Numbered from the stretch's first letter, positions 1-55,063 are shown. The stretch is 64,000 bases of DNA from an uncultured Bacteroidota bacterium (GCA_903916255.1 CAIWVW010000006.1:24026-88025), one strand, 5' to 3'. Made by a program: numbers and translations. The notes: generated by a model not told the origin, from the letters alone.

Positions 1-181
1 GTTGTTCTTCGCTAACCTTATGCGGATTGGCATAATGTTTTTTAACTATGTTGTAATATAGACGCTTGATAGCGAGCAAATATACTTTATGTATTGGATA
101 GTAAACCAATAAAAGCGGCAGTGGAAATGCCATAACAGCTATGAAAAACACGGTGAATATGTTTTGTACAGATAATAACAT
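1..181 (-). CDS. Small membrane protein, partial (runs off left edge); paralogue of 50326..50601
   Basis: Not in ORF track; manual translation MLLSVQNIFTVFFIAVMAFPLPLLLVYYPIHKVYLLAIKRLYYNIVKKHYANPHKVSEEQ; A-rich leader; ungapped similarity to the 91-aa ORF at 50326. Confidence 0.75.
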   Translation of the reverse strand, partial: MLLSVQNIFTVFFIAVMAFPLPLLLVYYPIHKVYLLAIKRLYYNIVKKHYANPHKVSEEQ

Positions 182-204: not shown

Positions 205-330
205 CAAAGGAATACCAAGCGGGAGGCGGGCAGCATGACATTAGCCCTGATTGGGAAATGACTATCGGCAACAAAATGTATGATTTTACAGCATCCTGCA
301 AAAAAAGCGCATTTGCATGATTTACATCAT
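205..330 (-). promoter_or_regulatory. Variant -7 box (TTCCTTTG, 205..212) plus array of FNR/CRP-like half or full sites
   Basis: ATGAC/ATGAT half-sites at 235, 258, 280 and perfect ATGAT-TTAC-ATCAT at 317..330. Confidence 0.55.
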
Positions 331-385: not shown

Positions 386-730
386 TTAATTAATTTCAGG
401 AAAGTTGAACGTAACATTTTGGTCTTTAAACTTAAAAGCTACCACATAGTTATCTGAAACATTTTCGGCGCCTTCAAAAAACATGTGCAGCGGGGTGCGT
501 GCCGTTTTAAAATAGGTAGCTATTGTAATATAATTCTCTACACGCGATTTCGGAGCTTTTCCGTTAATGGTGCAATGTCCGTCGGCTATGGCGGTAATGG
601 CTTCGTTTATAAGCATAAGGTCAACACCTCTAACGGTGTTCCTCACTTTTTTGGGCAAGTCTTCAACAAATTCTTTTCTCGATTTGATAGTATGGGCGCT
701 GTTTTTAACAGTAGCAGGTATGGAATGCAT
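386..730 (-). CDS. Hypothetical protein (114 aa)
   Basis: ATG after A-rich leader; same strand as neighbours; no family recognised. Confidence 0.65.
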   Translation of the reverse strand: MHSIPATVKNSAHTIKSRKEFVEDLPKKVRNTVRGVDLMLINEAITAIADGHCTINGKAPKSRVENYITIATYFKTARTPLHMFFEGAENVSDNYVVAFKFKDQNVTFNFPEIN

Positions 731-824: not shown

Positions 825-1838
825 TTAAATGGTGGCGGGTTCGCTTAAGTCGTGAATAGTGCACTGGAAGCCCATCATCATATCTTCTGTGGAAAATATA
901 ACTACGTCTTGTTTTACTTTTTTGCGCAACCCTGTGCGGGTTACCAATTCGAATTCGGAGGTTTGTTCCTTTATTTTGTTCTTAAATTGAGTATAGTATC
1001 CGTTTTTAATAGATTCTACATAATCAGCGGCAACCAAAAAGGTAAAGTGTTTTCCAGTAATTTCTTCGGGCGTATAGCCTGTAAGTTTTGAAATGTTGGG
1101 TGTAGCAAAGGTTATTTTGCCGTAATAATCGCACGTATATATAAAACTGCCAACATTCTGGGCAATAGTCCTGTATCGTATTTCACTTTCACTCACTTGT
1201 TTTTCCGATTCTATCCTCTTTTTCATGTCTCCATTGAGCTTAAACAGAACGAAAAAAATAATAAGAAAAGCAATCAGTTCGCCTAGAATAATGGTAAAAT
1301 TGGTTTTACTATTATATAATTCGCCTTGTTGGGTAAACCCGGTGCGTTCCTCGCGCTCCCGTTTGTTGATATTGGCAACCAATGTTCGTATGGTGTCCAT
1401 CAGGGCAATACCGTCTTTGGATGAAACCATTTTCTGCGCACTGTCAAAAGAGAGTTTCCTTACTTTGGCAAGGGTATCTATAAAATGCAACTTTACATAG
1501 ATGTGGTTTGCAAGTATAGTAGCATCTTCCAGCAGGTCTGTGTCATCACCCAGGTCTTTCTGGAGGTTTTTTACAATTCGGTTAATCTTGGCAACTGAGC
1601 TGTCTGAAGGAACCAGATACTTTTCATTTCCGGTGATGATACAGTTCATCACACCTTCGTCGGCAGTGGATGTTATGGCATACATACGTTCTATACGTGC
1701 TATCTGGTGCTCTGAATTAAACGCTTGGTTAGCCAATAGTTCTGTGCGTTTGCTGTTGCTTATGGAATAGTATGTGGCAACGGAAACAATGGCGAGGGAC
1801 AGCAGAAAAACAATTACAATGTATTTATTTATTTTCAT
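825..1838 (-). CDS. Membrane sensor with CHASE3 and PAS domains, no kinase or output domain
   Basis: N-terminal TM; CHASE3-like segment (NCIITGNEKYLVP); second TM; PAS (YTCDYYGKITFATP..GYTPEEITGKHF) ending at the C-terminus. Confidence 0.85.
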   Translation of the reverse strand: MKINKYIVIVFLLSLAIVSVATYYSISNSKRTELLANQAFNSEHQIARIERMYAITSTADEGVMNCIITGNEKYLVPSDSSVAKINRIVKNLQKDLGDDTDLLEDATILANHIYVKLHFIDTLAKVRKLSFDSAQKMVSSKDGIALMDTIRTLVANINKREREERTGFTQQGELYNSKTNFTIILGELIAFLIIFFVLFKLNGDMKKRIESEKQVSESEIRYRTIAQNVGSFIYTCDYYGKITFATPNISKLTGYTPEEITGKHFTFLVAADYVESIKNGYYTQFKNKIKEQTSEFELVTRTGLRKKVKQDVVIFSTEDMMMGFQCTIHDLSEPATI

Positions 1839-4350: not shown

Positions 4351-7300
4351 CTAAATCACTCCCTGACTGTGCATTTTCTGCAGCCGGTCATTATATTCCT
4401 TATATAAATCCTTTTGGTTTCCTGACTGGGCAAGGTATGTAAGGTTTTCCATAACCTGCAGGTTCATATTCATTTCACCTTCGTAATTCTTTTGGTTTTC
4501 CGGCGCAAGTGTTTTTAAATAGGTAACCCATGAGGCGGCCGCATCAAACATTTTCTTTGAAAGTTTGTTTGCTTTGTCGTAGGCCTGCACATCATAATAC
4601 CCTTGCACAATCATAGTTTCGTAGTAATCATACGGGCTGCTCTTTTCCGAAATGGAATCGGTAACCATATTAAGCACTTTAAGCGCCGAATCCTTTTTGT
4701 TTTCACGAATTAACTGAGTTGCCAGTAAGCCCGCTTCAAGCCTTAGGTCGGTGGCCATGCGGCGAATATTATCGTCGCAATAAACGCCCGAACCCATATT
4801 TCCCCAGCGGAATTTATGCATTACATTGTCATACATAACATCAGATGCAATGCGGCGGCCTTCAATGCTGTTGGTGTTTGTATTTACAACAGGCGTAAGT
4901 TCATACACCAATCCATTCGTTTGAAAATACTTTTCAAGACCTAAATAGTTTTCTTCCGGAAGGGTGGTAGCAAAGCAGATGGGGCGTTTCCAATCGTTAT
5001 GGGCAATAGCATCTAGCACCATAATTTTGTTGCGTTCGAGCAATGTACCGCCTACTTTAAAATCCAATTCATTCACAATGCTGTCAGTCATATTAGCAGG
5101 AACCAAACCGCTTTTCAGCACTTGTTGTTTATCCACTTTCAGCGAGAAGAACGGAGTGGGGAAGTAGTTATGCGTTTTTCCATCACCCAACTGTATTTTA
5201 TCGGCTTCATTATCGCTTTTTATAAAGTCGATAACGTTTTTCAAATCGTAAAACTGACCCGCTTTGTATTTTGGGTTGTAATTGGTGGCGATGTATAAAT
5301 AATCGCGGGTGCCTTCCCTGTATTCATCATGTGTAAGCGAAAATGGCATCCTGTCCGATTCATACGCTTTGCGGTTCATTTGGTCAGCATACCATGCCAT
5401 ACCAAGCAGTTCCAAATTACAAACGCGCACATCTGTGCGAATTCCTTCCACTTCCTGTGCATACCAAAGGGGGAATGTATCGCAATCGCCATCAGTAAAC
5501 AAGATTGCATTCGGCGGGCACGATTGTAAATAATCGATTGCCAAATCACGGCAAGTGTATCTTCCGCTGCGGTCGTGGTCGTCCCATTCGGCTCGGCACA
5601 TCACTACCGGCACAATTACAGCAAGCACAGTAGAAAGAATAGCCATGCCTATTCCTGCCTGCCTGTTTTTAGTTGCTTTAGCCAGTAATTCATATAAGCC
5701 AAGCACACCCAACCCTATCCATATTGCAAAAGCATAAAACGAACCGACATAGGAATAGTCACGTTCACGCGGCTGGTAGGGCGGCTGATTGAGATATAAA
5801 ATAATGGCAAGCCCGGTAAAAAAGAAAAGTGTACCCACTACGAGCCAGTTTCGGCGGTCTTTCATAAACTGGAAACCCATGCCAATTAAGCCAAGTATCA
5901 GCGGCAAGCCGTACATGGCATTATGCGCTTTATTATTGGCAAGTTCATCGGGCATACCGTCTTGCGGAGCGCGCATATTATCCAATGCCGGAATGCCGGT
6001 AATCCAGTTGCCATGCAGATTATCGTCGGGGTTGAGGCCGGGAATATCATTTTGTCTTCCGCAGAAATCCCACATAAAATAACGCAGGAACATAAATCCT
6101 ACCTGATAATGGAAAAAGAAGTGAACATTATCGCCAAAAGTAGGGCAATCGACATAGGCAGGTTGGCCGTCTTCTCCAATGCTTTTTACTTTCACCATAT
6201 CTGTTCCGCCCCATTTTTTATAGCCTTCCGGGCGATGCTGAGAAGGGTCAAACATACGGGGAAATATGGTGCACATAGCAGGGTCGTACTTAGGGACTTC
6301 TGTTTTTGTAATCTCTACATATTTTCCTTTCTTTTCGTCTTTGGCATAAACAGCGCTTCCAACATCTGAACTGATTGGCGAAGCTGTGTAATATGGCCCG
6401 TAAAGCTGCGGCCATGAACCATATTGTTTACGGTCTAAGTAATCATTCAAGCTCATCGGGTCGCTTGGGCAATCTTCATTCAGTGGAGTAAAAGCATTTG
6501 CACGAACCACCAGCATTACAAAAGAACAATAGCCGATTATGAGGGTTGCAGAGCATAAAATAGCTGTGTTTAAACCGGGTTTATTATGTTTTTTAGAGTA
6601 GTTAAGCCCCCAAACAATCAATGCGGTTATAAAAGCTCCATAAATAAAAACACCTGAATTAAATGGTAATCCAACGGTATTTACAAAGAATAATTCGAAC
6701 CAGCTGGCAAAACCTACTACGCCAGGAATAACAATGGCTTTAACCCCGCCAAGTATCATAACTCCGACTATAAAACCTGCAATACCTACCTGTGTGCTTT
6801 TGCTTTTTGAAAATTTCGAAAGTATAATATTGGGCCATTTCGAGCGCAATCCGTCGGGATAATTCTTCAGGAAGTAAAGCAATACCGCAGCAGGAATAAA
6901 CAGTAAGCAAAGGAAGTGAACACCGATGGCAAGCCCTATAAGCATGGCAAGCAAAATGAGCCAGCGCTCGCTGTGGTCGGTGGCGCGGGCATATTTGGTG
7001 GAGACCCAGAACATGAGCGACGTAAAGCAAATAGACATGGCCCAAACAGATGCTTCTGTTGCGGAAAACCAAATAGAATCGGCAAAAATGAACGAGGTGG
7101 CTCCAATGAATCCGGCGCCAAGGATAGCATAAATCCGACCTTCTGTTAACTCACCTGAACGGGTATATAATTTCTTTGCAAAAAAGGTGGTTATCCAAAA
7201 TAAGAACATGATAGCCATTGCGCTGAATGTGGCGCAGGCGCGGTTTAATATGGGTGCCACTTTATGCACATCGCCAAAACTGAGCAACGAAATGCAATGT

Positions 7301-7503
7301 TGCAATAACTGCAAGAAAGGCTCCCCGGGCGGGTGGCCTATTTCAAGTTTGTAATAAATGGAAAGGTTTTCGCTGCAATCCCAAAAGCTGGCTGTAGGTT
7401 CCACAGTGCTCCAGTAAACAAAGCAAGCTATAAGGAATACGCACCATCCGACAATATTATTGAGTTTGGTGAATTTGGTTTCTAAAGGTGAGCCGTTAGT
7501 CAT
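4351..7503 (-). CDS. DUF2723 / TMEM260-like GT-C membrane protein
   Basis: SFWDCSE..HPPGEP, FADSIWFSATEA, PRERDYSY, FTDGDCDTFPLWYAQEVEGIRTDVRV motifs; 1050 aa. Confidence 0.9.
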   Translation of the reverse strand: MTNGSPLETKFTKLNNIVGWCVFLIACFVYWSTVEPTASFWDCSENLSIYYKLEIGHPPGEPFLQLLQHCISLLSFGDVHKVAPILNRACATFSAMAIMFLFWITTFFAKKLYTRSGELTEGRIYAILGAGFIGATSFIFADSIWFSATEASVWAMSICFTSLMFWVSTKYARATDHSERWLILLAMLIGLAIGVHFLCLLFIPAAVLLYFLKNYPDGLRSKWPNIILSKFSKSKSTQVGIAGFIVGVMILGGVKAIVIPGVVGFASWFELFFVNTVGLPFNSGVFIYGAFITALIVWGLNYSKKHNKPGLNTAILCSATLIIGYCSFVMLVVRANAFTPLNEDCPSDPMSLNDYLDRKQYGSWPQLYGPYYTASPISSDVGSAVYAKDEKKGKYVEITKTEVPKYDPAMCTIFPRMFDPSQHRPEGYKKWGGTDMVKVKSIGEDGQPAYVDCPTFGDNVHFFFHYQVGFMFLRYFMWDFCGRQNDIPGLNPDDNLHGNWITGIPALDNMRAPQDGMPDELANNKAHNAMYGLPLILGLIGMGFQFMKDRRNWLVVGTLFFFTGLAIILYLNQPPYQPRERDYSYVGSFYAFAIWIGLGVLGLYELLAKATKNRQAGIGMAILSTVLAVIVPVVMCRAEWDDHDRSGRYTCRDLAIDYLQSCPPNAILFTDGDCDTFPLWYAQEVEGIRTDVRVCNLELLGMAWYADQMNRKAYESDRMPFSLTHDEYREGTRDYLYIATNYNPKYKAGQFYDLKNVIDFIKSDNEADKIQLGDGKTHNYFPTPFFSLKVDKQQVLKSGLVPANMTDSIVNELDFKVGGTLLERNKIMVLDAIAHNDWKRPICFATTLPEENYLGLEKYFQTNGLVYELTPVVNTNTNSIEGRRIASDVMYDNVMHKFRWGNMGSGVYCDDNIRRMATDLRLEAGLLATQLIRENKKDSALKVLNMVTDSISEKSSPYDYYETMIVQGYYDVQAYDKANKLSKKMFDAAASWVTYLKTLAPENQKNYEGEMNMNLQVMENLTYLAQSGNQKDLYKEYNDRLQKMHSQGVI

Positions 7504-43730: not shown

Positions 43731-45689
43731 TTAATTAATAGCAACCTTTACAACCCTTTGTATGTGGTCGTTACCAACTCTTACCAAATAAATTGCTTTG
43801 GCAAGTGTCGAAATATTGAAAGAGGTTTCTATGGTATTAGAAGCCGTTATCACATCTTTTTGCATCAGCATTCTGCCGTTAATGTCAAAAATTTGTGCAA
43901 CCAGTCTTTCATTTTCAGGGAAATCAGTTCCTTTAATGTTCAACATGCTTCCATTTTGATAAGCCTTAAAGGTAGCTGCATCTGTATTTACAACATTCGG
44001 AACATCGGTAGGGCATTGGGTAATTTGGAAACTAAATATCCATGAACCCACATTGGTTCCATTCCCGAATGAGCTGTTTGTGTACATATTGGTGGCCCAG
44101 AAAGTAATGCCATCGGTTGGGTCGACAGACATTTCAGAATAATCGCCCCAGCGGTTTCCGTTTCCTTGCGGGGTAGCGGCAAGCGCGTTTCCGTTTTTAA
44201 CATCTGTTTCAGTCAGGGTCATAGTATTCAATGCATCGCAGGTTCTTCTTCCGGTATATCGTACACCCGGATAAACACCGGCACTGTCAGAAACTGTATA
44301 TGATAATCCAATGCTTCCATTTTGGTCCATCGCTATACATGGGTTCCAGCGGCTAACCCTATCGTCGGGTGCATAGGTCGATTGTTGGAAAATGCTCCAC
44401 AAGTTTGTTGTGGTATCCTGGTGCAGTTCATACCACCGGATGCCGCCTACGCGGTTGGTTGCATCGCCAACGTTAACTACATGTGCCAATACCGCAGAAT
44501 TGTAGCTTGTCCAGCGCAAATAAGGTATACGGTAAGAGAAGAATCCATCCAAAGCATCCATATCATCGGAAGCATTATTGCCCGGTTGGCGTATATCGGC
44601 ACGGGTTCCTCCGGTAAAGGTAGAGTTGAATGCAGAAGTAAGCAAATGCTGGTATTTCGCATTGATAGTTCCTGTTTTGGTTGTCCAGTTCATTTTTACT
44701 TGCTCGATGCATATAGAATCGGCTCCGCCGCAACCCCAGTTATCATCCCAGTAATAAAATAAGTACTCAGGTGAACCATAAGGAGGAAGTGTGCCATCGC
44801 AATCCAGCATCATAGGGCAGAAGAAGCCCGGTGAATTGCAGCCTAAGTTCCATGGGCCATAGCTCCAGGGTACTGCTATTTCGCCTGCCACAGCGCCTTT
44901 CAGCATACTGTCGCGTTGAAAACAAATTACATAGTCGCTCGATGCGCAATTGCAGGTGCCATAATATCCATCTGCCCAAACTACATATTTAGGATAGTCA
45001 TCTACCTGGCGGCGGTTATTATTGGGAGTAAAGGTGTACATGTGGTAAGTTCCGGTAGGGTCATTTGTTGCCGAAACTGCAAATAAAAGGTCGATAATGT
45101 TATTGGTGCTTGGCCCGTCAAATTCGGTAATTATCCAGCGGTCCGCAGCTTTGTCATACATTACAACGGCATCGCCAAAATCATCCGGATTAAAAACGCT
45201 TTTCAAATCGGTAGAAGCTAATTTAACCGTTCCGGTTTTATTGTAAACGGCATAATCCACATTTACTGTTTGCACAAAATAGTTGGAACCAATCATTCCA
45301 TTCGGGTCGAGCGGATAATAGCCTTGTGAACTTTGTTGTCCATCAATACTTACAGGTGTAAATGTCGACATAGAATGGGTGTTGTGCAGTGTTCCCATTT
45401 CCGTTTGTCTTGCACCATCCACAGCACTTAAACCGGGGTCGTAATTCCATGTATTTTTATGAGCATCCATAGCATCGGCATCGCCGGCAGGCTTCGGTGT
45501 AACTTTTGCAGGTAATTCGCCTTTCGCCCGTTTGGCATCACGCTCTTTTATTAATTCAAGTAAAGGTTTCGATTCCCAATGGGCCTTACATTGCATATAA
45601 TAAGAGCCATTGGCATTGAATTGAACCGTTTGGGCAGGCAGCGAAAAGGCAATAGCCAGTCCTGCGCTTAAGGTTATAAATTTATTCAT
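43731..45689 (-). CDS. T9SS-secreted Cys-rich protein of unknown function (paralogue 1)
   Basis: Signal peptide from ATG 45689; DPNGMIGSNYFVQ, DDYPK, RWGDYS motifs; CTD ..YLVRVGNDHIQRVVKVAIN. Confidence 0.88.
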   Translation of the reverse strand: MNKFITLSAGLAIAFSLPAQTVQFNANGSYYMQCKAHWESKPLLELIKERDAKRAKGELPAKVTPKPAGDADAMDAHKNTWNYDPGLSAVDGARQTEMGTLHNTHSMSTFTPVSIDGQQSSQGYYPLDPNGMIGSNYFVQTVNVDYAVYNKTGTVKLASTDLKSVFNPDDFGDAVVMYDKAADRWIITEFDGPSTNNIIDLLFAVSATNDPTGTYHMYTFTPNNNRRQVDDYPKYVVWADGYYGTCNCASSDYVICFQRDSMLKGAVAGEIAVPWSYGPWNLGCNSPGFFCPMMLDCDGTLPPYGSPEYLFYYWDDNWGCGGADSICIEQVKMNWTTKTGTINAKYQHLLTSAFNSTFTGGTRADIRQPGNNASDDMDALDGFFSYRIPYLRWTSYNSAVLAHVVNVGDATNRVGGIRWYELHQDTTTNLWSIFQQSTYAPDDRVSRWNPCIAMDQNGSIGLSYTVSDSAGVYPGVRYTGRRTCDALNTMTLTETDVKNGNALAATPQGNGNRWGDYSEMSVDPTDGITFWATNMYTNSSFGNGTNVGSWIFSFQITQCPTDVPNVVNTDAATFKAYQNGSMLNIKGTDFPENERLVAQIFDINGRMLMQKDVITASNTIETSFNISTLAKAIYLVRVGNDHIQRVVKVAIN

Positions 45690-45837: not shown

Positions 45838-47634
45838 TTATTTTTGAATCAACAGTTTGCCTGTGCCGGTTAATCCGCCCGATTCATTTATAACGCGGTA
45901 TAAATAAAGCCCTGCGGGTTGAGCGCTAAGGTCTATTTTACTTTCGGTGCCTGTAATAATTTCTTTATAAACCTGCTGGCCCAGTTCATTATAAACTTCC
46001 AGCGAGGAGTTATTCATTGCTTGTGCGGTTTCCATGGTAAATAAACCGCTGTTAGGGTTAGGGTAAACCTTTATGGCATTATTTCCGGCAACTGTTGTTT
46101 GCACACTTGTTGTTACACAAGGCAAGGTAAGCAGCGTAGGATTTGAAGCGAACCCGTTGGCAACAACTACCACTGAATAGGTTCCATTTGGCATGGTGGG
46201 AAGGGTAAAGTAGGCTGTGTCTTCCAGGCTGTCGGTCATTACTGCGCCAATTCTGTTCCAATTGGTGGTTTTAGCGTAGTATACGTTAGTGCCGTTGCTA
46301 AGGCGAACCAACGGATAGTTGGTTGAATTTTGGGCATCATCACCATATCCGTTGCCTTCGGAAATGCCATTGAATAGTTTTCCGGTAATTGTGTAATCGA
46401 TACAATTGGTGCTGCTAACGCTGTTAATGGTTGGTTTGCCTTGCGGGATAGCCGCACTGCCCGGAGTATAAATAAAATACTGGTTAGGATTACTGATAGC
46501 GGAACAACCCATAAGAACGGTACCATCGGGCAGGGCCAATAAAGAATTATTTTGAGATATTGAACCGGATAATTCATCGGAACCAATAGTAGGTATGGTG
46601 GCAGTTACCTGTGTAAAAGTATTGGTGGTGTAATCATATTCAAGGAAATAAGTAGGTGTACTGAATTCATTCCGGGCAGTAGGAATGGGCGATACAGCCA
46701 GTAAAATATGTCCGTTTACAAGCATGGCTCCGGGGGCATCAGGTTGCGTTACATAGTTTCCGCTGATTTTTGGGAAATTTGCAGCAGAAGCCCAACTGCC
46801 TTTTGTGCTAGAATTACCTGAAGGAGTGTAAATATCATTGTATTGGGTGGCACCAAAGAAAATGGCATTCCCGTTAGGCAATAAAAACGCATTGCCTGAT
46901 TCAAACCCCCATTGGTCGTAAATATTATTTGGAGCCATTGCATCTACCAGCCATGTATTTGTTTGCGGCACATAGCGGCACGATGAATCTTGTGCAGGAT
47001 TGTTTGGATAGGGCATACCGATAGTAAGAACTGTGCTGTCCGGCAGTTTAAGCCAGGATGCTTCATCATGGTTTTCGGGTTCTGCATTTTCGTTAATATA
47101 ATTTAAGGTAGTGGTATTCAATTGTAAAATGCTGTTACATGGCTGGCCTTGGTTTGCACCAATTTCAGGGCCTTCTAAAATGTTACCGTCATACAACAAT
47201 TCAGATGGGGCATCATAAATATTCCAATTGGCGGGGATATTACCGCATGTGGTCCATGTGTTAGCTACGGGGTCATATATTTCACCATAAGAACCTCCCG
47301 TTCCATATTCGCCGCCTGCAACATATACCTTGCCGCTTGGCAATACCTGCGATGAGAAAGCAAAACGGTCATAATTCATGCTGGTTATGCTTGTCCATGT
47401 TCCATTTACATAACTGCCACTGGCATCGGGTGTAAGTTTATCCCAGCCTGTGCCATATCCCGGCCCTGATGTGTTACTGCATATTACGGTTCCGTCGGTA
47501 AGCAATAGCATAACGCCTTGGTTGGCGTGAGGAGCCTGATTGGTTAATGCTGTCCATGTACCTGTTTGGGCAGTAGATACCGTGAAAATTGAAGAACTGA
47601 TAAGGACGAGTGAACCGATAAGTATTTTTTTCAT
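45838..47634 (-). CDS. Kelch-repeat beta-propeller protein with T9SS CTD
   Basis: MLLLTDGTV, LPSGKVYVAGGEYG, LLPNGN, LPDGTVL repeats; CTD IKVYPNPNSG..GLYLYRV..GKLLIQK. Confidence 0.88.
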   Translation of the reverse strand: MKKILIGSLVLISSSIFTVSTAQTGTWTALTNQAPHANQGVMLLLTDGTVICSNTSGPGYGTGWDKLTPDASGSYVNGTWTSITSMNYDRFAFSSQVLPSGKVYVAGGEYGTGGSYGEIYDPVANTWTTCGNIPANWNIYDAPSELLYDGNILEGPEIGANQGQPCNSILQLNTTTLNYINENAEPENHDEASWLKLPDSTVLTIGMPYPNNPAQDSSCRYVPQTNTWLVDAMAPNNIYDQWGFESGNAFLLPNGNAIFFGATQYNDIYTPSGNSSTKGSWASAANFPKISGNYVTQPDAPGAMLVNGHILLAVSPIPTARNEFSTPTYFLEYDYTTNTFTQVTATIPTIGSDELSGSISQNNSLLALPDGTVLMGCSAISNPNQYFIYTPGSAAIPQGKPTINSVSSTNCIDYTITGKLFNGISEGNGYGDDAQNSTNYPLVRLSNGTNVYYAKTTNWNRIGAVMTDSLEDTAYFTLPTMPNGTYSVVVVANGFASNPTLLTLPCVTTSVQTTVAGNNAIKVYPNPNSGLFTMETAQAMNNSSLEVYNELGQQVYKEIITGTESKIDLSAQPAGLYLYRVINESGGLTGTGKLLIQK

Positions 47635-47984
47635 GTTTGTGTGTGTTAATAATTCCTTATTGAGTAGTAACCCGGATAAGGTTTGAATTTTGGAGGTGTT
47701 TGATTAGTTGAAAGTATGAATACCAATTTTTAAAATCATTCATACTTGGTGGTAAAACAAGCCTCTTGGTAATAGAGAGGTAAAAATGATTTTCGGCAAT
47801 GTAAATAAATAATTCTTTTGCCGGTAACAATTCAAGTTCTTTTCTTGCTTAAAAGTGAGTTAAGGGGAAGGTGTTTTTCTAAATTTCTGATAGTCAGTAT
47901 TTATTTTATTTTATTTAATTCTCAAGCAAGCCGGAATAACTGACATAAATCAGAAAACACAATGTCATAATAAGGAATATGGAT

Positions 47985-50217: not shown

Positions 50218-50305
50218 CTGATTAATATCAGCGGTGAAAATGATAAATCTCACTTGTGTCCGGGTGTCAAATCATGATTTTTATTTAACCAGTACTGTTC
50301 TTTTG
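50218..50305 (+). promoter_or_regulatory. FNR/CRP-like site array and variant -7 box
   Basis: CTGAT-TAAT-ATCAG (50218), ATGAT-AAAT-CTCAC (50240), GGGTG-TCAA-ATCAT (50262) at a 22-bp period; TTCTTTTG at 50298..50305. Confidence 0.6.
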
Positions 50306-50325
50306 CGCCACCAAATTAAAAGAAC

Positions 50326-50601
50326 ATGCCAATTACTTTAAGTATCCAGTCTTTTCTTTCGTTTGCATTTGTTGCATTAATTTTTCTACCCTTGCCGATA
50401 TTGATAGTAACTAACCTGTTAGGATATTTGTCTGATTGGTTTATGTTTAACAGTTACCACAAGATAATAGAAAAAAAATACGCGCATCTGCAGTCGATTG
50501 AAGTGGAGCACCTGAAAGAAATTTTTCCGCATAAAAATGAAAAGCATTTGGAAAGCATGGCTGATTATATTAATGGAAAAAGAAATTCGAACGGAAATTA
50601 A
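50326..50601 (+). CDS. Small membrane protein (91 aa), paralogue of 1..181
   Basis: N-terminal TM with PLP motif; A-rich leader; similarity to the ORF at the window start. Confidence 0.8.
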   Translation: MPITLSIQSFLSFAFVALIFLPLPILIVTNLLGYLSDWFMFNSYHKIIEKKYAHLQSIEVEHLKEIFPHKNEKHLESMADYINGKRNSNGN

Positions 50602-50612
50602 AATAAAACATT

Positions 50613-50691
50613 GGGCAGGAATCATAAACATGCTGAGCTACATCAATCTCATAGGCGTAAACGATTTTGCTTGGTAGATTCTTGCCCTTTT
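50613..50691 (+). ncRNA. Candidate structured RNA, copy 1 (3' UTR hairpin)
   Basis: 11-bp closing stem GGGCAGGAATC/GATTCTTGCCC followed by TTTT; core TCTCATAGGCGTAAACGATT. Confidence 0.55.
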
Positions 50692-50722: not shown

Positions 50723-50766
50723 CTGACGTATATCAGTAAATTTTAAAATAAGTGCAATTACATTTG
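50723..50766 (+). promoter_or_regulatory. Class II-type promoter: FNR-like box plus consensus -7 box
   Basis: CTGAC-GTAT-ATCAG (50723..50736) and TACATTTG (50759..50766); no ORF follows. Confidence 0.7.
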
Positions 50767-50770
50767 CAAC

Positions 50771-50880
50771 CTCAAAAAAGAGTTTAAGCTCTTTAAATGC
50801 GGGGGGAGGTATTAGCTAATGTCCAAGGTTGTTCTCATAGGCGTTAACGATTCAGGCAGGCGATATTCTCCCCGGATTTT
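50771..50880 (+). ncRNA. Candidate sRNA, copy 2 (about 110 nt)
   Basis: Promoter upstream; 5' hairpin AAAGAG/CTCTTT; stem CGGGGGGAG/TTCTCCCCG enclosing TCTCATAGGCGTTAACGATT. Confidence 0.62.
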
Positions 50881-50936
50881 AGAAGGAAAAAATTTTCTTC
50901 TTCAAAAATCTCCGAATACTTAATTTGATTATCGCA

Positions 50937-51989
50937 TTACGAGAATTTGCGGATGCGTTCTAACCCAAACGGATTGAGAACTTTAATTTCCCTTCCGTCT
51001 GTTTCAATCAGCCATTCCCGTTTAAAATCAGACAAGGTGCGTATGAGTGATTCGGTAGATGAGCCTGCAATGCTGGCTAATTCTTCCCGTGAAATCCGAA
51101 TATTATCGTTAGGTGAATTTTTGCGGTGCAATTGTAAAAGCACATCGGCTACGCGTGAACGAACAGAATTATACGCAAGGCTTAGCAGCCTTTCTTCGCG
51201 TTCCGATATATTATTGGCAAGCAATTTTACAAACCGGGTAGATACTTCATGGTTGGAATATATTAGCGACAGGAAATCGTCCTTCGGAATAAGCGCCACT
51301 TCCGCTTCATCGAAAGCACTTGCAGAATCGGTAAACGATGCGCCTTCCAACAAAGCTACATATCCAAAGAAATCTCCGGGGCCATATATTTCGGTAATAA
51401 ATTCTTTCCCTTCCTGATTTACTTTCCAGGTTTTCACTTTTCCTTTTATTACGAAATAAACGGATGTCGGTTTTTCACCTGCTTTATATAAGTCTTCTTT
51501 TCCCCGGAATGATTCGATATGATAATCGGCAGCAACGGATAACGGCAGGCTGAATTTTTTCGCCTCATCTATAAATTCTGCTAAGCCGCTCAAATCGCGG
51601 GAGTAATTCTTCCGGAAAAACTCGGCCCGGCGCAAACGTGTGCGTATGGCATTTAGCAAATCCGCTTCCCTGACGGGTTTGGTAAGATAATCGTCTGCGC
51701 CCAGGTTCATACCCTTGCGCAAGTCGGTTTTTTCGGCTTTGGCCGAAAGAAATATAAATGGGATACCTGCCGTTGATGGGTTTTGCGACACATGCTGAAG
51801 CACACCGTAACCATCAAGACCGGGCATCATAATGTCGCAGATAATAAGGTCGGGCCTTTCGCTCAGGGCCAGTTCTACGCCTTTGTTTCCATTGTCGGCA
51901 GTTACTACCGTATAATTGGCAAGGTCGATAACTTCCGAAATATTCTCGCGCATTTCTGCGTCGTCTTCTATAAGTAGGATTTTTTTCAT
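50937..51989 (-). CDS. Response regulator fused to Crp/Fnr-family domains (REC-cNMP-HTH)
   Basis: LLIEDD..LIICDIMMPGLDG; cNMP-binding fold (GDFFG); ISREELASIAGSSTESLIRTLSDF HTH. Confidence 0.93.
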   Translation of the reverse strand: MKKILLIEDDAEMRENISEVIDLANYTVVTADNGNKGVELALSERPDLIICDIMMPGLDGYGVLQHVSQNPSTAGIPFIFLSAKAEKTDLRKGMNLGADDYLTKPVREADLLNAIRTRLRRAEFFRKNYSRDLSGLAEFIDEAKKFSLPLSVAADYHIESFRGKEDLYKAGEKPTSVYFVIKGKVKTWKVNQEGKEFITEIYGPGDFFGYVALLEGASFTDSASAFDEAEVALIPKDDFLSLIYSNHEVSTRFVKLLANNISEREERLLSLAYNSVRSRVADVLLQLHRKNSPNDNIRISREELASIAGSSTESLIRTLSDFKREWLIETDGREIKVLNPFGLERIRKFS

Positions 51990-52003
51990 AACTATATATC
52001 GGT

Positions 52004-53767
52004 TTAGTTCAATGTGTTAGTAGTGGGTATATTAATGGTAAACGTAGTGCCTACACCCTCTGTGCTCTTAAAATTAATGCTGCCTTTCATCAGGTCGGTA
52101 TATCGTTTTACAATATTAAGACCTAATCCCGTACCTCTGACATTAATAGCATTTTTTGCCCTGAAAAAATTTTCGAACAGATGAGATTGGTCAGTTTCTG
52201 GAATACCCATTCCATGGTCGGTTACATCTATTTCCAGTTCTTTATCATTCAGCTTGGTTGTAAACTCGATTTCCGAACTCTCGGGCGAGTATTTACTTGC
52301 ATTCGAAAGCAGATTTACTATTACATTCTTCATCATTTGGTTGTCCAGAAATACGCCCGTATTATTGCCGATATGCTTATAGGTTATTTTTTGCCCGGTT
52401 TTCAATGTCGAGTTTAATTCATCTATCAAATCTTCTGAAAATAAAACAATATTAAACAGTGTGGGTTTCACTTCTATTTTGCCTTGTTCCAGCTTCTCCA
52501 GCGAAATAAAGCTGTTTAATATATCTACCAAATGGTCCACCGATGATTTTATACGCAGTAAATGCTTGTTGCTTTTATCGCGTATTACATCCACTTCATT
52601 GCTGTTGCGTATGTATTTTTCTATCAGTTCGGTAGAGGATATAATGGTTCCCAGCGGTGTTCTGAATTCATGCGAGGCGATAGAAACAATAAGCGATGTA
52701 AGTTCATTTAAGTGCTTTTCTTTTTCCAGCGATGTCCGTACATCCTGCTCGGCCCTTTTCTGTGCGGTAATATTTTGTTCTACCAGCAAAATTTCGTCAA
52801 TCTCTGTATTTCCGCTGTTCCATAAAGCAACAGCGCTGGCTGTATATAACAGCCCGCGATAGGTAAATTCAAAAGTAGAGTTGATACTTTTCCTTTCGAA
52901 GACCTTCATAAGCTCCCTGGCTATTTCACCTCTCTTTTCCGGCGGAAAACGGGTTAAGTAATCGGTACCCATTAAATCTTCGGGTGCAATCTCGAATTTT
53001 GAAAGTTCTTTTCCGTTGGCAAAAACATATTTTAAGTCGCGGTTAAGAACATTGATGGTACCATCGGGAAAGTTAGTGGCTATCATTTCATACCGCCGCT
53101 GACTGTCGTGTAGCTTTTGTTCGGCCAAGTTTCTTTTTCGGCGGTCGTTCAAATGCAATATGTAGGTAAGAATAAGTAAAAGCACACAAACCACAATACC
53201 CGCAAAATAGAATTTACCGGTTGCACCTGCATTATGCACCATGTCGTCTTCTTTCTCTTCCAGCAATGCTTTGGTCGATTTTTGAAGGCGGTCTATCATG
53301 GCATTTATCGAATCGGAAACATTCTTCTCTGTATCGGATGCTATGATACGCTGGGCGGCCTCGAAACCGTTTTTGCTGCTGCGTAAAATGATACCCGTGT
53401 TCAGTAGTTCGATGCGCATGGATATTAACGAATCGATATGCGTGAACGATTTGCGTTGCTGCAGGGTCGGATTGCCTATTGTCAGCAGTTCGCCCGCTAT
53501 TTTGGTTAACTTGTTGCGGTCGCTTATATAAGGGTCGAGGTACATGTTCTTACTCGTAATTATATACCCCTTTTCGGCATTTTCGGCATCCTTTAGGGTA
53601 GATTGGATGGTTCCCAACGTTTCGATAAGCAGGTGCGTATTTGTTACATCTTTGTCGGATGCTATGTAGGTGGAAGTACTCCGGAATGACTCGAAGCCAA
53701 TAAACCCAAGAATGGCAATAGCTGCAACGTATCCAATCAGGATTAATCTGTCGTAAATACTTTTCAT
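52004..53767 (-). CDS. CHASE3-PAS sensor histidine kinase
   Basis: DAENAEKGYIIT..YLDPY (CHASE3); PAS-like segment; ASHEFRTPLG; NLLSNASKYS; GTGLGL. Confidence 0.93.
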   Translation of the reverse strand: MKSIYDRLILIGYVAAIAILGFIGFESFRSTSTYIASDKDVTNTHLLIETLGTIQSTLKDAENAEKGYIITSKNMYLDPYISDRNKLTKIAGELLTIGNPTLQQRKSFTHIDSLISMRIELLNTGIILRSSKNGFEAAQRIIASDTEKNVSDSINAMIDRLQKSTKALLEEKEDDMVHNAGATGKFYFAGIVVCVLLLILTYILHLNDRRKRNLAEQKLHDSQRRYEMIATNFPDGTINVLNRDLKYVFANGKELSKFEIAPEDLMGTDYLTRFPPEKRGEIARELMKVFERKSINSTFEFTYRGLLYTASAVALWNSGNTEIDEILLVEQNITAQKRAEQDVRTSLEKEKHLNELTSLIVSIASHEFRTPLGTIISSTELIEKYIRNSNEVDVIRDKSNKHLLRIKSSVDHLVDILNSFISLEKLEQGKIEVKPTLFNIVLFSEDLIDELNSTLKTGQKITYKHIGNNTGVFLDNQMMKNVIVNLLSNASKYSPESSEIEFTTKLNDKELEIDVTDHGMGIPETDQSHLFENFFRAKNAINVRGTGLGLNIVKRYTDLMKGSINFKSTEGVGTTFTINIPTTNTLN

Positions 53768-54041
53768 TCTTTTTTAATTACTCAACAGGGTTTAATGGTC
53801 AGTTATAATCCTATGCAACATTACGGAAAAAAAGTAATATTAGTAACTTAATACGCGAATAATCGTAAAGGTTACCGATATTATCGTTAAATTTTAATGG
53901 CTGCCATGATTTGTGTCATTGCAAGCCGTGGGGCAAATCAAGTGGAATATGTTTTATTTGTTGATTATCAGTGCGTAAGTTTATTGTGTACATCCGGAAG
54001 GAACAACAGTATAAATGAATGCTTGGTAAAAATAAGCGGAA

Positions 54042-54055
54042 ATGATTAAAATCAG
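54042..54055. promoter_or_regulatory. FNR-like palindrome
   Basis: ATGAT-TAAA-ATCAG in the kinase / DUF6089 intergenic region; second site ATGAT-TTGT-GTCAT at 53906..53919. Confidence 0.55.
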
Positions 54056-54184: not shown

Positions 54185-55063
54185 ATGCGCAAAATAACTT
54201 ACGTTTTTTCTTTTTTTCTGATGTCGGCCGTTTCGGTCAAAGCTCAATTCGCCACTGAAGTTGGGTTAAACATTGGTGCATCCAACTACCTTGGCGATAT
54301 TGGAGGGCAGTTGCAAAATGCGCGGCCCTGGCTTATCGATATGAAAGTGCAGGAAACCCGCTGGGCAGTGGGCGGATACGTAAAGCAAAAGATTAACAGC
54401 CATTTTTTTGTAGAAGCCCAGCTCAACTGGATTCGCATTTGCGGGGCCGACAGTTTATCGACCAATCATGGCAGGGTAGGGCGCAACCTGTATTTCAGGA
54501 ACGATATTGAAGAGTTATCGGCTATGGCCGATTGGATTTTTTATCAGGTAACGGATATTGGCGGCTACTACAGTTATAAAACTACATTCAATGCCTATTT
54601 AACGGGCGGGGTAAGCGTATTTCACCACAACCCCGAAGCTATGTATGAAGGAGATTGGGTAAGCCTGGAACCTTTGCATACAGAAGGGAAATCGTACAGC
54701 CTTATTCAGCCGGGAATACCTCTTGGTTTTGGGTTTTTCTATATTTTTCAACGTCAGTATAGGGTAGGGTGGAATTTAATATGGACTGAAACCTTTACCG
54801 ATTATCTGGATGATGTAAGCGGAAATTATGTTGCATTGCCCGAAGGTTCGGAGGCTGCTTATATGGCTAACCGCACATCCATGGTGCCGGGAATGACTAA
54901 AAGCTGGGCCGATAACTATTTGCCCGGCAACAAGCGCGGAGACCCAAGTAACAAAGACAGTTTTATTACAACTCAAATATCGCTGGGTTATGTAATTAAA
55001 GGCTCGAGCCATAAGATAATACATAAGTCCCTGTTCAATTACAGGTCGCGCTCTACGTTCTAA
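54185..55063 (+). CDS. DUF6089 / PorT-like outer-membrane beta-barrel protein
   Basis: GASNYLGDIGG, RNLYFRNDI, TFTDYLDDVSG, RGDP..KDSF motifs. Confidence 0.85.
   Translation: MRKITYVFSFFLMSAVSVKAQFATEVGLNIGASNYLGDIGGQLQNARPWLIDMKVQETRWAVGGYVKQKINSHFFVEAQLNWIRICGADSLSTNHGRVGRNLYFRNDIEELSAMADWIFYQVTDIGGYYSYKTTFNAYLTGGVSVFHHNPEAMYEGDWVSLEPLHTEGKSYSLIQPGIPLGFGFFYIFQRQYRVGWNLIWTETFTDYLDDVSGNYVALPEGSEAAYMANRTSMVPGMTKSWADNYLPGNKRGDPSNKDSFITTQISLGYVIKGSSHKIIHKSLFNYRSRSTF

What the first reader, a model, noticed from the sequence alone, without database searches (positions are those of the whole stretch)
205..330. Candidate Crp/Fnr regulon: FNR-like boxes centred at -41.5 in several promoters, some in 22-bp arrays
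Seen: the -7 box sits 4 nt before the start codon at wzm and lpxD, so TSS was taken as box end +5. On that basis, NTGA(T/C)-N4-(A/G)TCAN full or half sites centre at -41.5 for promoters at 200(-), 50310(+), 50771(+) and 54007(-). Extra copies recur every 22-23 bp (235/258/280 and 50218/50240/50262). Established: TTGAT-N4-ATCAA at -41.5 is the class II FNR activation geometry. Inference: the REC-Crp/Fnr protein at 50937..51989 is the cognate activator. Caveat: several half-sites and -7 boxes are degenerate and the TSSs are predicted.
Basis: partly seen in the sequence, partly recalled or inferred. Interest (0 to 1): 0.7.

Follow-up and report, generated by a model that had tools for sequence, protein, structure and literature searches.

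The report
Receiver-Crp regulator boxes at fixed promoter positions
The FNR-like DNA boxes are real binding sites, kept at fixed promoter positions (-41.5, -63.5) across Bacteroidota, and most likely belong to an uncharacterised regulator that joins a phosphorylation receiver to a Crp/Fnr DNA-binding module; this window holds a side branch of it with a different sensor.

Summary
The exact box TGAY-N4-RTCA occurs 9 times in the window against 2.9 expected, and 6 of the 7 best matrix hits are intergenic. The fourth, 54007(-), has no credible -7 box. The third copies (280, 50262) are half-sites only.

In 160 loci carrying orthologues of the REC-cNMP-HTH_Crp regulator, the box is about 4-fold enriched. 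The excess is almost entirely intergenic. Boxes pair at 22-23 bp, which never happens in shuffles. The box centre lies 36.5 or 58.5 bp upstream of the G of TAnnTTTG, which corresponds to -41.5 and -63.5.

Conserved targets are the kinase-regulator operon itself, cbb3 oxidase, FixI/CcoI, Usp and Hsp20. In an independent set of 80 cbb3 oxidase loci, 51 carry the box with the same geometry. Most partner kinases have a FixL-like haem-PAS domain.

The window's regulator keeps the family's DNA-reading helix. However, it belongs to a small clade whose members lack a haem-PAS kinase; here the kinase is CHASE3-PAS. Its clearest targets are two paralogous small membrane proteins and a short structured transcript.

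No paper in the searched library describes this regulator. Transcription starts and binding remain predictions.

The parts
235..248 (-). Promoter-proximal box of the 82-aa gene promoter, centre 241.5 (-41.5). The half nearest the promoter (GTCAT) is intact and the other half is degenerate.
   Evidence: Matrix score 7.0, top 0.11% of the window. Lies 36.5 bp from the G of TTCCTTTG. The composite score is the best in the window.
258..271 (-). Second box, centre 264.5 (-64.5), 23 bp from the first.
   Evidence: Matrix score 7.3. A 23-bp spacing occurs in 11 of 64 family promoters.
280..293 (-). Only the ATCAT half is present.
   Evidence: Matrix score -1.5, at the 8th percentile. Not significant on its own.
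317..330 (.). Full palindrome ATGATTTACATCAT, centre 323.5. It is out of phase with the array and has no -7 box at a canonical distance.
   Evidence: Exact match. Matrix score 12.2. No box found at canonical distances.
205..212 (-). -7-like box TTCCTTTG (5 of 6 consensus letters). Predicted transcription start near 200, giving a 19-nt leader.
2..181 (-). 5' part of an 82-aa small membrane protein gene, a paralogue of the 91-aa gene at 50326.
   Evidence: Full length recovered in L241. 29% identity over 76 residues, E 2e-11.
47940..47953 (.). Strong orphan box CTGACATAAATCAG, 312 bp upstream of the Kelch/T9SS-tail gene 45838..47634(-).
   Evidence: Exact match. Matrix score 13.9. No canonical -7 box.
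50218..50231 (+). Distal box of a triple array, centre 50224.5 (-85.5).
   Evidence: Exact match. Matrix score 13.3. Lies 80.5 bp from the G of TTCTTTTG.
50240..50253 (+). Middle box, centre 50246.5 (-63.5): TGATAAATCTCA. It has the CTCA form that is common in the family.
   Evidence: Matrix score 10.5. Lies 58.5 bp from the G.
50262..50275 (+). Proximal half-site, centre 50268.5 (-41.5). Only ATCAT is intact. The paralogous promoter has the same half at the same place.
   Evidence: Matrix score 1.1. Alignment of the two promoters. Of 64 family promoters, 12 have a strong distal and a weak proximal box.
50298..50305 (+). -7-like box TTCTTTTG. Predicted transcription start near 50310, giving a 16-nt leader.
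50326..50601 (+). 91-aa small membrane protein gene with no known family.
50723..50736 (+). Single strong box CTGACGTATATCAG, centre 50729.5 (-41.5).
   Evidence: Exact match. Matrix score 13.4. Lies exactly 36.5 bp from the G of a perfect TACATTTG.
50759..50766 (+). Perfect -7 box TACATTTG. Predicted transcription start at 50771.
50771..50935 (+). Predicted short transcript, convergent with the regulator gene. It is either a structured RNA or the mRNA of a 34-aa ORF (50819-50923).
   Evidence: Folds into three hairpins, z = -2.5. ORF listed. No Rfam family.
50937..51989 (-). Response regulator with three domains: receiver, cNMP-binding-like beta-roll and Crp-type HTH (350 aa).
   Evidence: Pfam. 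Helix TESLIRTL. Confident model, pLDDT 87. A single Cys, so no Fe-S motif.
52004..53767 (-). Sensor histidine kinase, CHASE3-PAS-HisKA-HATPase (587 aa), 15 bp upstream of the regulator gene.
   Evidence: Pfam. Its PAS domain has no haem-PAS relative in the PDB.
53906..53919 (.). Strong box ATGATTTGTGTCAT, 145 bp upstream of the kinase start codon. Likely autoregulation, but the -7 box is weak.
   Evidence: Exact match. Matrix score 12.0. Box TAATATCG matches 4 of 6.
54042..54055 (.). Strong box ATGATTAAAATCAG between the kinase gene and the PorG-like/DUF6089 gene 54185..55063(+). The promoter it serves is undetermined.
   Evidence: Exact match. Matrix score 13.8. Only 4-of-6 boxes in either direction.

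Best explanation
The boxes, consensus (A/C)TGA(T/C)-N4-(A/G)TCA(T/G), are operator sites for a dimeric Crp/Fnr-type activator. In this activator the N-terminal sensing part is a two-component receiver domain.

Proposed mechanism:
1. The adjacent histidine kinase phosphorylates Asp52 of the receiver.
2. The active regulator binds a box centred at -41.5. This position overlaps the place where a -33 element would be; these promoters have none. Usually a second dimer binds 22 bp upstream at -63.5, and sometimes a third at -85.5. All dimers sit on the same face of the DNA helix.
3. The bound regulator recruits sigma-A RNA polymerase to a TAnnTTTG -7 box.

In most Bacteroidota the kinase carries a FixL-like haem-PAS domain. 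There the regulon covers cbb3 oxidase, its FixI/CcoI assembly ATPase, Usp, Hsp20 and the kinase-regulator operon itself. That makes it a one-step low-oxygen switch.

The window holds a diverged branch with a CHASE3-PAS kinase. In it the same box most clearly drives two paralogous small membrane protein genes (start codons at 181- and 50326+) and a short transcript starting near 50771. It probably also drives the kinase-regulator operon.

Shown here: site enrichment, spacing, fixed distance to the -7 box, target gene families, and conservation of the helix and of the haem histidine. Inferred: binding by this particular protein, activation rather than repression, control by phosphorylation, and the stimulus.
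For: Window:
- 9 exact boxes against 2.9 expected.
- 6 of the 7 top matrix hits are intergenic, and 5 of them lie within 3.1 kb of the kinase-regulator operon.

Family (80 genome loci):
- 272 exact boxes against 69 +/- 9 in shuffles.
- 200 of them lie in the 11% of sequence that is intergenic.
- 32 pairs are spaced 21-23 bp apart, against 0 in shuffles.

Geometry:
- The distance from box centre to the G of TAnnTTTG shows sharp peaks at 36.5 and 58.5-59.5 bp.
- 25% and 30% of site-gene pairs fall on these peaks, against about 1% at other offsets.
- There is no conserved -33 element, and A is enriched at the predicted +1.

Replication:
- In 80 metagenome loci: 151 boxes against 36 expected, 18 pairs at 22-23 bp, and the same two peaks.
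- In 80 cbb3 oxidase loci chosen without regard to the regulator: 51 have a box within 400 bp upstream, with the same geometry. Loci labelled outside Bacteroidota (Verrucomicrobiota, Kiritimatiellota, Blastocatellia, Chlorobiota; one labelled Comamonadaceae excepted) have none.

Targets: kinase-regulator operon (47 loci), Usp (24 loci), FixI/CcoI (13), CcoNO (7), Hsp20 (6), DoxX (9).

Proteins:
- Recognition helix: E, I and R are invariant or nearly so in 79 of 79 regulators.
- The regulator is the only Crp-family gene in 79 of 80 loci.
- The partner kinase PAS domain matches FixL haem domains at E 5e-13, and the proximal His is conserved in 67 of 68.

Published support: the -7 box is mapped at -12 to -5 in F. 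psychrophilum, and cbb3 is strongly induced there under oxygen limitation (PMC9723704).
Against: - No transcription start, binding assay or expression data exist for this organism. No RNA run holds the region.
- Four of the strongest window boxes (323.5, 47946.5, 53912.5, 54048.5) have no -7 box with at least 5 of 6 matches at a canonical distance.
- The proximal boxes of both small-protein promoters are half-sites.
- The window's kinase lacks the haem-PAS domain. The regulator sits in a separate clade (support 0.999) with no haem-PAS partner, so the stimulus is unknown.
- A single-domain FNR-like protein with a Cys cluster and the same E-T-V-I-R helix exists in one related locus. A similar protein could bind the same boxes.
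Confidence: 0.72

Rival explanations
1. The boxes are real operators, but their main binder is a different Crp/Fnr paralogue. It could be a classical single-domain FNR-type protein with an Fe-S cluster, or the canonical haem-PAS-coupled REC-Crp copy encoded elsewhere in this genome. On this view the local CHASE3-coupled regulator is only one of its targets, or a competitor for the same sites.
For: - L022 encodes a 232-aa protein with an N-terminal Cys cluster (MKHCESCSARKSGIFC) and the helix ETVIR.
- All family members share one helix, so paralogues would cross-bind.
- At least one MAG carries two family copies (L036 and L038).
- The window's clade lacks haem-PAS kinases.
Against: - Only 1 of 80 loci has such a single-domain gene nearby.
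- Boxes sit upstream of the REC-Crp operon in 47 of 80 loci.
- Five of the seven best window boxes lie within 3.1 kb of the local operon.
- Orphan members of the window's clade have a box at -41.5 of their own gene (L001).
Confidence: 0.17
2. The regulator acts mainly as a repressor or roadblock at these sites, at least at the orphan boxes (323.5, 47946.5, 53912.5, 54048.5), rather than as a class II activator.
For: - The orphan boxes have no canonical -7 box partner.
- Box 323.5 lies just after the stop codon of the upstream gene.
Against: - The fixed -41.5/-63.5 placement and the missing -33 element are hallmarks of activator-dependent promoters.
- cbb3, a conserved target, is induced under low oxygen in a flavobacterium (PMC9723704).
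Confidence: 0.08
3. The window's weaker elements arise by chance in AT-rich intergenic DNA. These are the half-sites at 280 and 50262 and the promoter at 54007(-). Only the full palindromes are functional.
For: - Matrix scores are -1.5 and 1.1.
- The box TTCATTTA matches only 4 of 6.
- A lone RTCAT half-site is expected about once per 100 tries when +/-1 bp is allowed (my estimate).
Against: - The two paralogous promoters keep the same promoter-side half (RTCATG) at the same distance from TTCYTTTGC.
- Of 64 family promoters, 12 combine a strong distal box with a weak proximal one.
Confidence: 0.4

Closest known systems
FNR / ANR / FixK class II promoters (TTGAT-N4-ATCAA centred at -41.5)
   Same: - Same protein superfamily: beta-roll plus Crp-type HTH.
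- Same core half-site TGA and the same 14-bp palindrome.
- Same centre at -41.5 relative to the predicted start.
- The E and R of the recognition helix are kept.
- Overlapping regulon: cbb3 oxidase and fixI.
   Different: - No Cys cluster. The N-terminus is a receiver domain instead.
- The helix has Ile where FNR has Ser212 (from memory). In line with that, the flanking base is A/C rather than T.
- Sites usually come as 22-bp tandems at -41.5 and -63.5.
- The promoter uses the Bacteroidota sigma-A -7 box TAnnTTTG.
FixL-FixJ-FixK cascade of rhizobia and Caulobacter
   Same: - Haem-PAS kinase with a conserved proximal His in the main family.
- The output is a Crp/Fnr-type protein acting on cbb3 oxidase and fixI-type genes.
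   Different: - The FixJ and FixK roles are fused into one polypeptide, so there is no transcriptional relay.
- The window's own copy has a CHASE3-PAS kinase instead of a haem-PAS kinase.
DosS/DosT-DosR hypoxia regulon of Mycobacterium tuberculosis
   Same: - A haem-sensing kinase plus a response regulator.
- The regulon is rich in universal stress proteins and an Hsp20/alpha-crystallin (the DosR regulon content is from memory).
   Different: - DosR has a NarL/LuxR-type output domain and a different DNA motif.
- Its kinases sense through GAF domains, not PAS domains.
E. coli CRP (class I, II and III promoters)
   Same: - Closest solved folds are CRP and FNR family structures, with Foldseek E down to 2e-17.
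- The -41.5 and roughly -62 positions are the classic activating positions.
   Different: - NCBIfam CRP score is 86 against a cut-off of 266.
- cAMP-contacting residues are not conserved, judged by eye on the sequence.
- Abutting dimers 22 bp apart are not the usual CRP arrangement (from memory).

Membership tests
Crp/Fnr transcription factor superfamily | A cNMP-binding-type beta-roll followed by a dimerisation helix and a C-terminal Crp-type HTH | tested here: met
   Pfam cNMP_binding at 3.7e-20 and HTH_Crp_2 at 1.2e-15. The model shows a beta-roll at 157-235, a long helix at 262-290 and an HTH at 301-324. The top PDB folds are all CRP or FNR family.
FNR proper (oxygen-labile 4Fe-4S sensor) | An N-terminal cluster of three Cys plus one central Cys that ligate the Fe-S cluster | tested here: not met
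   The protein has a single Cys, C51, inside the receiver domain.
CRP proper (cAMP receptor) | Equivalog-level similarity and cAMP-contacting residues | tested here: not met
   NCBIfam PRK11753 scores 86 bits against a cut-off of 266. The stretch GDFFGYVALLEGASFTDSASA lacks the CRP Glu and Arg-Ser pattern (inspection; CRP residues from memory).
Two-component response regulator | Receiver domain with an acidic pocket, a phospho-acceptor Asp, a Thr/Ser and a Lys, plus an adjacent histidine kinase | tested here: met
   Pfam Response_reg at 1.7e-27. D9, D52 (CDIMMP), A83 and K104-P105 are invariant or near-invariant in 71 sequences; D10 is Asp here but Asn in most members. The kinase gene ends 15 bp upstream.
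Class II activator-dependent promoter | Activator site centred near -41.5 from the transcription start, replacing the -35/-33 element | tested here: inconclusive
   The distance to the -7 box is fixed at 36.5 bp. The -7 box is mapped at -12 to -5 in a flavobacterium. No -33 element is present. However, no transcription start has been mapped in this organism or at these promoters.
FixL-type haem-PAS oxygen-sensor kinase (partner kinase) | PAS domain homologous to the FixL haem domain, with the proximal His | tested here: not met
   For the window's kinase, the PAS domain finds no haem-PAS structure and shows no match to the family haem-PAS domain. For the wider family the feature is met: E 5e-13 to RmFixL, and His conserved in 67 of 68.

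The most novel reading that the evidence does not exclude
Aerobic Bacteroidota share a master switch with no experimental description. It is a phosphorylation-gated Crp/Fnr activator that binds as side-by-side dimers at -41.5 and -63.5, effectively a tetramer held together by the receiver domains. In the window's branch the haem oxygen sensor has been replaced by an extracytoplasmic CHASE3 sensor, while the DNA specificity is unchanged. As a result, oxygen and an envelope or external cue would converge on the same box. The two small membrane proteins that this box drives, each encoded beside a CHASE3-PAS protein, would be feedback partners of those sensors.
Probability: 0.3. Interest if true: 0.75.

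Novelty: new variant of a known kind. Interest (0 to 1): 0.62.

Why it matters
How aerobic Bacteroidota sense low oxygen and switch on the high-affinity cbb3 oxidase has no named regulator in the literature I could search. These bacteria include soil, freshwater, marine and fish-pathogenic flavobacteria. The F. psychrophilum transcriptome paper reports the induction of cbb3 but names no regulator for it.

This analysis provides four things that make the question directly testable:
- a defined operator sequence;
- a strict promoter architecture (-41.5 / -63.5 / -7 box);
- a candidate regulator family found in well over 500 genomes;
- a core regulon.

The tests are knock-outs, DAP-seq and reporter assays in cultured species.

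The window adds a further point. The same DNA-binding module has been rewired to a different sensor (CHASE3) and to different targets. This is a compact example of how a regulon diversifies.

Tried and rejected
The positional test was therefore run on the window and on 240 related loci.
- RNA evidence: the region is found only in DNA runs from lake or freshwater metagenomes, and no RNA run holds it.
- Close relatives for footprinting the window's own promoters: the best regulator matches are only 61-68% identical in genome contigs and 63% in metagenome contigs, with different neighbouring genes.
- Relatives of the 91-aa protein: none found in genome contigs or in the 80 regulator loci.
- Rfam: nothing reaches a gathering score between 47600 and 54300.
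- Literature: seven searches found no paper on a receiver-Crp regulator or its box in Bacteroidota.
  - The anammox CRP/FNR meta-regulon paper treats the Bacteroidota homologues as MalR-like.
  - RgzAB of F. johnsoniae is a different system, a GAF hybrid kinase plus a CheY-like regulator.
- A canonical -7 box for the four orphan boxes: none with at least 5 of 6 matches in either orientation.
- A mobile-element explanation for the fixed spacing: rejected, because the sequence between box and -7 box is not conserved.

Full report
**What is in the window.**

The window is Bacteroidota DNA with 40% G+C. It is held by lake and freshwater metagenome runs.

The gene at 50937..51989(-) encodes a 350-aa protein with three domains: a receiver, a cNMP-binding-like beta-roll and a Crp-type HTH. 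It follows a CHASE3-PAS-HisKA-HATPase kinase gene at 52004..53767(-).

The exact pattern TGAY-N4-RTCA occurs 9 times, against 2.9 +/- 1.5 in shuffles, and none of 100 shuffles reaches 9. Six of the nine are intergenic: 318, 47941, 50219, 50724, 53907 and 54043.

I built a position matrix from related loci only. With it, six of the seven best hits in the window are intergenic, and five of those lie within 3.1 kb of the kinase-regulator operon.

I scanned every -7-like box with at least 5 of the 6 consensus letters of TAnnTTTG, on both strands (1164 boxes). Each was scored for a site 36.5 bp upstream of its G plus a second site 21-23 bp further upstream.

The top three are G205(-) at 14.3, G50305(+) at 11.6 and G50766(+) at 9.5. 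Scores of at least 14 occur 0.01 times per shuffled window, and scores of at least 11.5 occur 0.1 times.

The fourth promoter, 54007(-), rests on TTCATTTA, which matches only 4 of 6. It is not supported, although its box (54048.5, score 13.8) is among the best.

In each array two copies are good: 241.5 and 264.5 score 7.0 and 7.3, and 50224.5 and 50246.5 score 13.3 and 10.5. The third copy of each (286.5 and 50268.5) keeps only the RTCAT half.

**The two arrays serve paralogous genes.**

The gene that runs off the window at 181(-) is complete in another assembly (L241) and encodes 82 aa. It is a paralogue of the 91-aa gene at 50326, with 29% identity over 76 residues and E 2e-11.

Both promoters have the same promoter-side half-site RTCATG at the same distance from TTCYTTTGC. 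Their leaders are short, 19 and 16 nt. Each gene lies beside a CHASE3-PAS protein: 825..1838 in one case and the kinase in the other.

**Comparative test 1: loci with the regulator.**

I examined 80 genome loci encoding relatives of the regulator at 47-68% identity. They span Cytophagales, Chitinophagales, Sphingobacteriales, Flavobacteriales and Saprospirales.

- They hold 272 exact boxes, against 69 +/- 9 in block shuffles.
- 200 of the boxes lie in the 11% of sequence that my crude gene calls leave intergenic. The 72 coding hits are about the number chance predicts.
- Pairs of exact boxes are spaced 22 bp apart 26 times and 23 bp apart 6 times. Shuffles give no pairs at 21-23 bp.

A second set of 80 metagenome loci gives the same picture: 151 boxes against 36 expected, and 18 pairs at 22-23 bp.

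**Comparative test 2: distance to the promoter.**

I oriented each intergenic box towards the gene it precedes. The G that ends an exact TAnnTTTG then lies 36.5 bp from the box centre in 25 cases and 58.5-59.5 bp away in 42 cases, with almost nothing in between.

Allowing one mismatch in the -7 box, 25% and 30% of 281 site-gene pairs fall on these two offsets, against about 1% at any other offset. The metagenome set repeats both peaks.

In Flavobacterium psychrophilum the sigma-A box TAnnTTTG has been mapped at -12 to -5 (PMC9723704). A leaderless lpxD-like gene in this window has the box 4 nt before its ATG. The box centres are therefore at -41.5 and -63.5.

The aligned promoters show three further features:
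- There is no conserved -33 element.
- There is no sequence conservation between the box and the -7 box, so this is not a repeated element.
- A is enriched at the predicted +1.

Of 64 such promoters, 35 have two good boxes, 12 have a good distal and a weak proximal box, 7 have a proximal box only, and 5 have a third box. All three architectures seen in the window therefore have precedents in the family.

**What is regulated.**

Genes behind the boxes fall into recurrent families:
- the kinase-regulator operon itself (47 loci);
- universal stress proteins (26 genes in 24 loci);
- a FixI/CcoI-type P-type ATPase (13);
- DoxX-like proteins (9);
- fused CcoNO cbb3 oxidase (7);
- Hsp20 (6);
- TerB-like proteins (4).

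As an independent check I fetched 80 loci encoding CcoNO, chosen without regard to the regulator. Of these, 51 have an exact box within 400 bp upstream of the oxidase gene, again with the 37 and 59 offsets. The loci labelled Verrucomicrobiota, Kiritimatiellota, Blastocatellia or Chlorobiota have none.

**The kinase.**

The usual partner kinase is about 400 aa with a PAS domain. That domain matches the FixL haem domain (1d06, E 5e-13) and DosP. The proximal haem histidine is conserved in 67 of 68 partner kinases. For the family as a whole this points to oxygen sensing.

**Who binds.**

- The recognition helix T-[AS]-T-E-[ST]-[VL]-I-R-T-L is nearly invariant. E and R are present in 79 of 79 regulators and I in 76 of 79. 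The window's copy, TESLIRTL, fits.
- The regulator is the only Crp-family gene in 79 of 80 loci.
- It has one Cys, so there is no Fe-S site.
- It scores far below the CRP equivalog cut-off.
- The receiver has all its catalytic residues.
- From memory, FNR reads TTGAT with Glu209, Ser212 and Arg213. Here Ser is replaced by Ile, which fits the loss of the flanking T: the observed flank is A/C on the left and T/G on the right.
- An AlphaFold model is confident (pLDDT 87). It shows the receiver, a linker helix, the beta-roll, a long dimerisation helix and the HTH.
- The PDB holds only single-module CRP/FNR relatives. None has a receiver domain.

**What is special about this window.**

In a tree of 159 family members the window's regulator falls in a clade of six with support 0.999: the window, L001-L004 and L161.

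None of the six has a haem-PAS kinase next to it. Four have no adjacent kinase. One (L004) has a kinase cut by the contig end, whose kinase core closely resembles the window's. The window itself has CHASE3-PAS. By contrast, 120 of the 159 members have a haem-PAS kinase. The window's PAS domain finds no haem-PAS structure.

The box and the geometry are therefore inherited from the family, but the stimulus for this copy is unknown. If the genome also encodes a canonical paralogue, both proteins would read the same boxes.

**Mechanism proposed.**

1. The kinase phosphorylates Asp52.
2. Dimers occupy -41.5 and -63.5 on one face of the helix, plus -85.5 at 50326. At 22 bp centre to centre they must abut, so cooperative binding through the receiver domains is likely (inference).
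3. The proximal dimer stands in for the missing -33 element and recruits sigma-A polymerase.

Positive autoregulation is typical of the family. It is plausible here through box 53912.5, but the -7 box there is weak.

**Limits.**

- No transcription start, expression or binding data exist for this organism.
- The window's own genome could not be scanned.
- My gene calls are crude.
- One related locus encodes a single-domain FNR-like protein with the same helix. A second binder therefore cannot be excluded.

**Novelty.**

Seven full-text searches found no description of this regulator or its box. Earlier AI notes from this same scan on other genomes reach the same family-level reading. I re-derived their claims here and do not count them as independent evidence.

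Noticed in passing
window 50647-50666 and 50833-50852: A 20-nt direct repeat, TCTCATAGGCGT(A/T)AACGATT, occurs twice against 0.02 expected. The second copy lies inside the short transcript predicted from the 50771 promoter. Both copies could encode the peptide stretch LIGVND.
   Followed up: partly
window 50771-50935 (+): The best-formed box promoter in the window drives no annotated gene. The 165-nt region folds into three hairpins (z = -2.5), and one of them sequesters the start of a 34-aa ORF. It has no Rfam family. It is convergent with the 3' end of the regulator gene.
   Followed up: partly
window 825-1838 (-) and 386-730 (-): A CHASE3-PAS protein with no kinase domain (337 aa) is followed by a 114-aa protein with no known family and then by the box-driven 82-aa gene. 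This looks like a partial duplicate of the sensor and small-protein module at 50-54 kb.
   Followed up: partly
L241 12087-15311 and window 4351-7503 (-): Two paralogous proteins of about 1050 aa, TMEM260-like (TMEM260_N/DUF8416). One lies directly downstream of the 82-aa gene and is followed by a SusC/SusD pair and an ECF sigma factor.
   Followed up: no
window 43731-45689 (-), 45838-47634 (-), 48037-49998 (-): Three genes, two of them shown to carry type IX secretion sorting tails; the first and third are 55% identical paralogues and the middle one has Kelch repeats. Orphan boxes lie at 47946.5 and 50115.5 in their upstream regions.
   Followed up: partly
It is therefore a probable leaderless mRNA. 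This fits the published -12 to -5 position of the -7 box.
   Followed up: yes
L022 5282-5980 (-): A 232-aa single-domain Crp/Fnr protein with an FNR-like N-terminal Cys cluster and the same E-T-V-I-R recognition helix as the receiver-Crp family. It may be a second reader of the same boxes.
   Followed up: partly
window 54185-55063 (+): A DUF6089 outer-membrane beta-barrel protein with a sub-threshold match to the T9SS PorG model (85 bits against a cut-off of 130). It is divergent from the kinase gene, and two strong boxes lie between the two genes.
   Followed up: no
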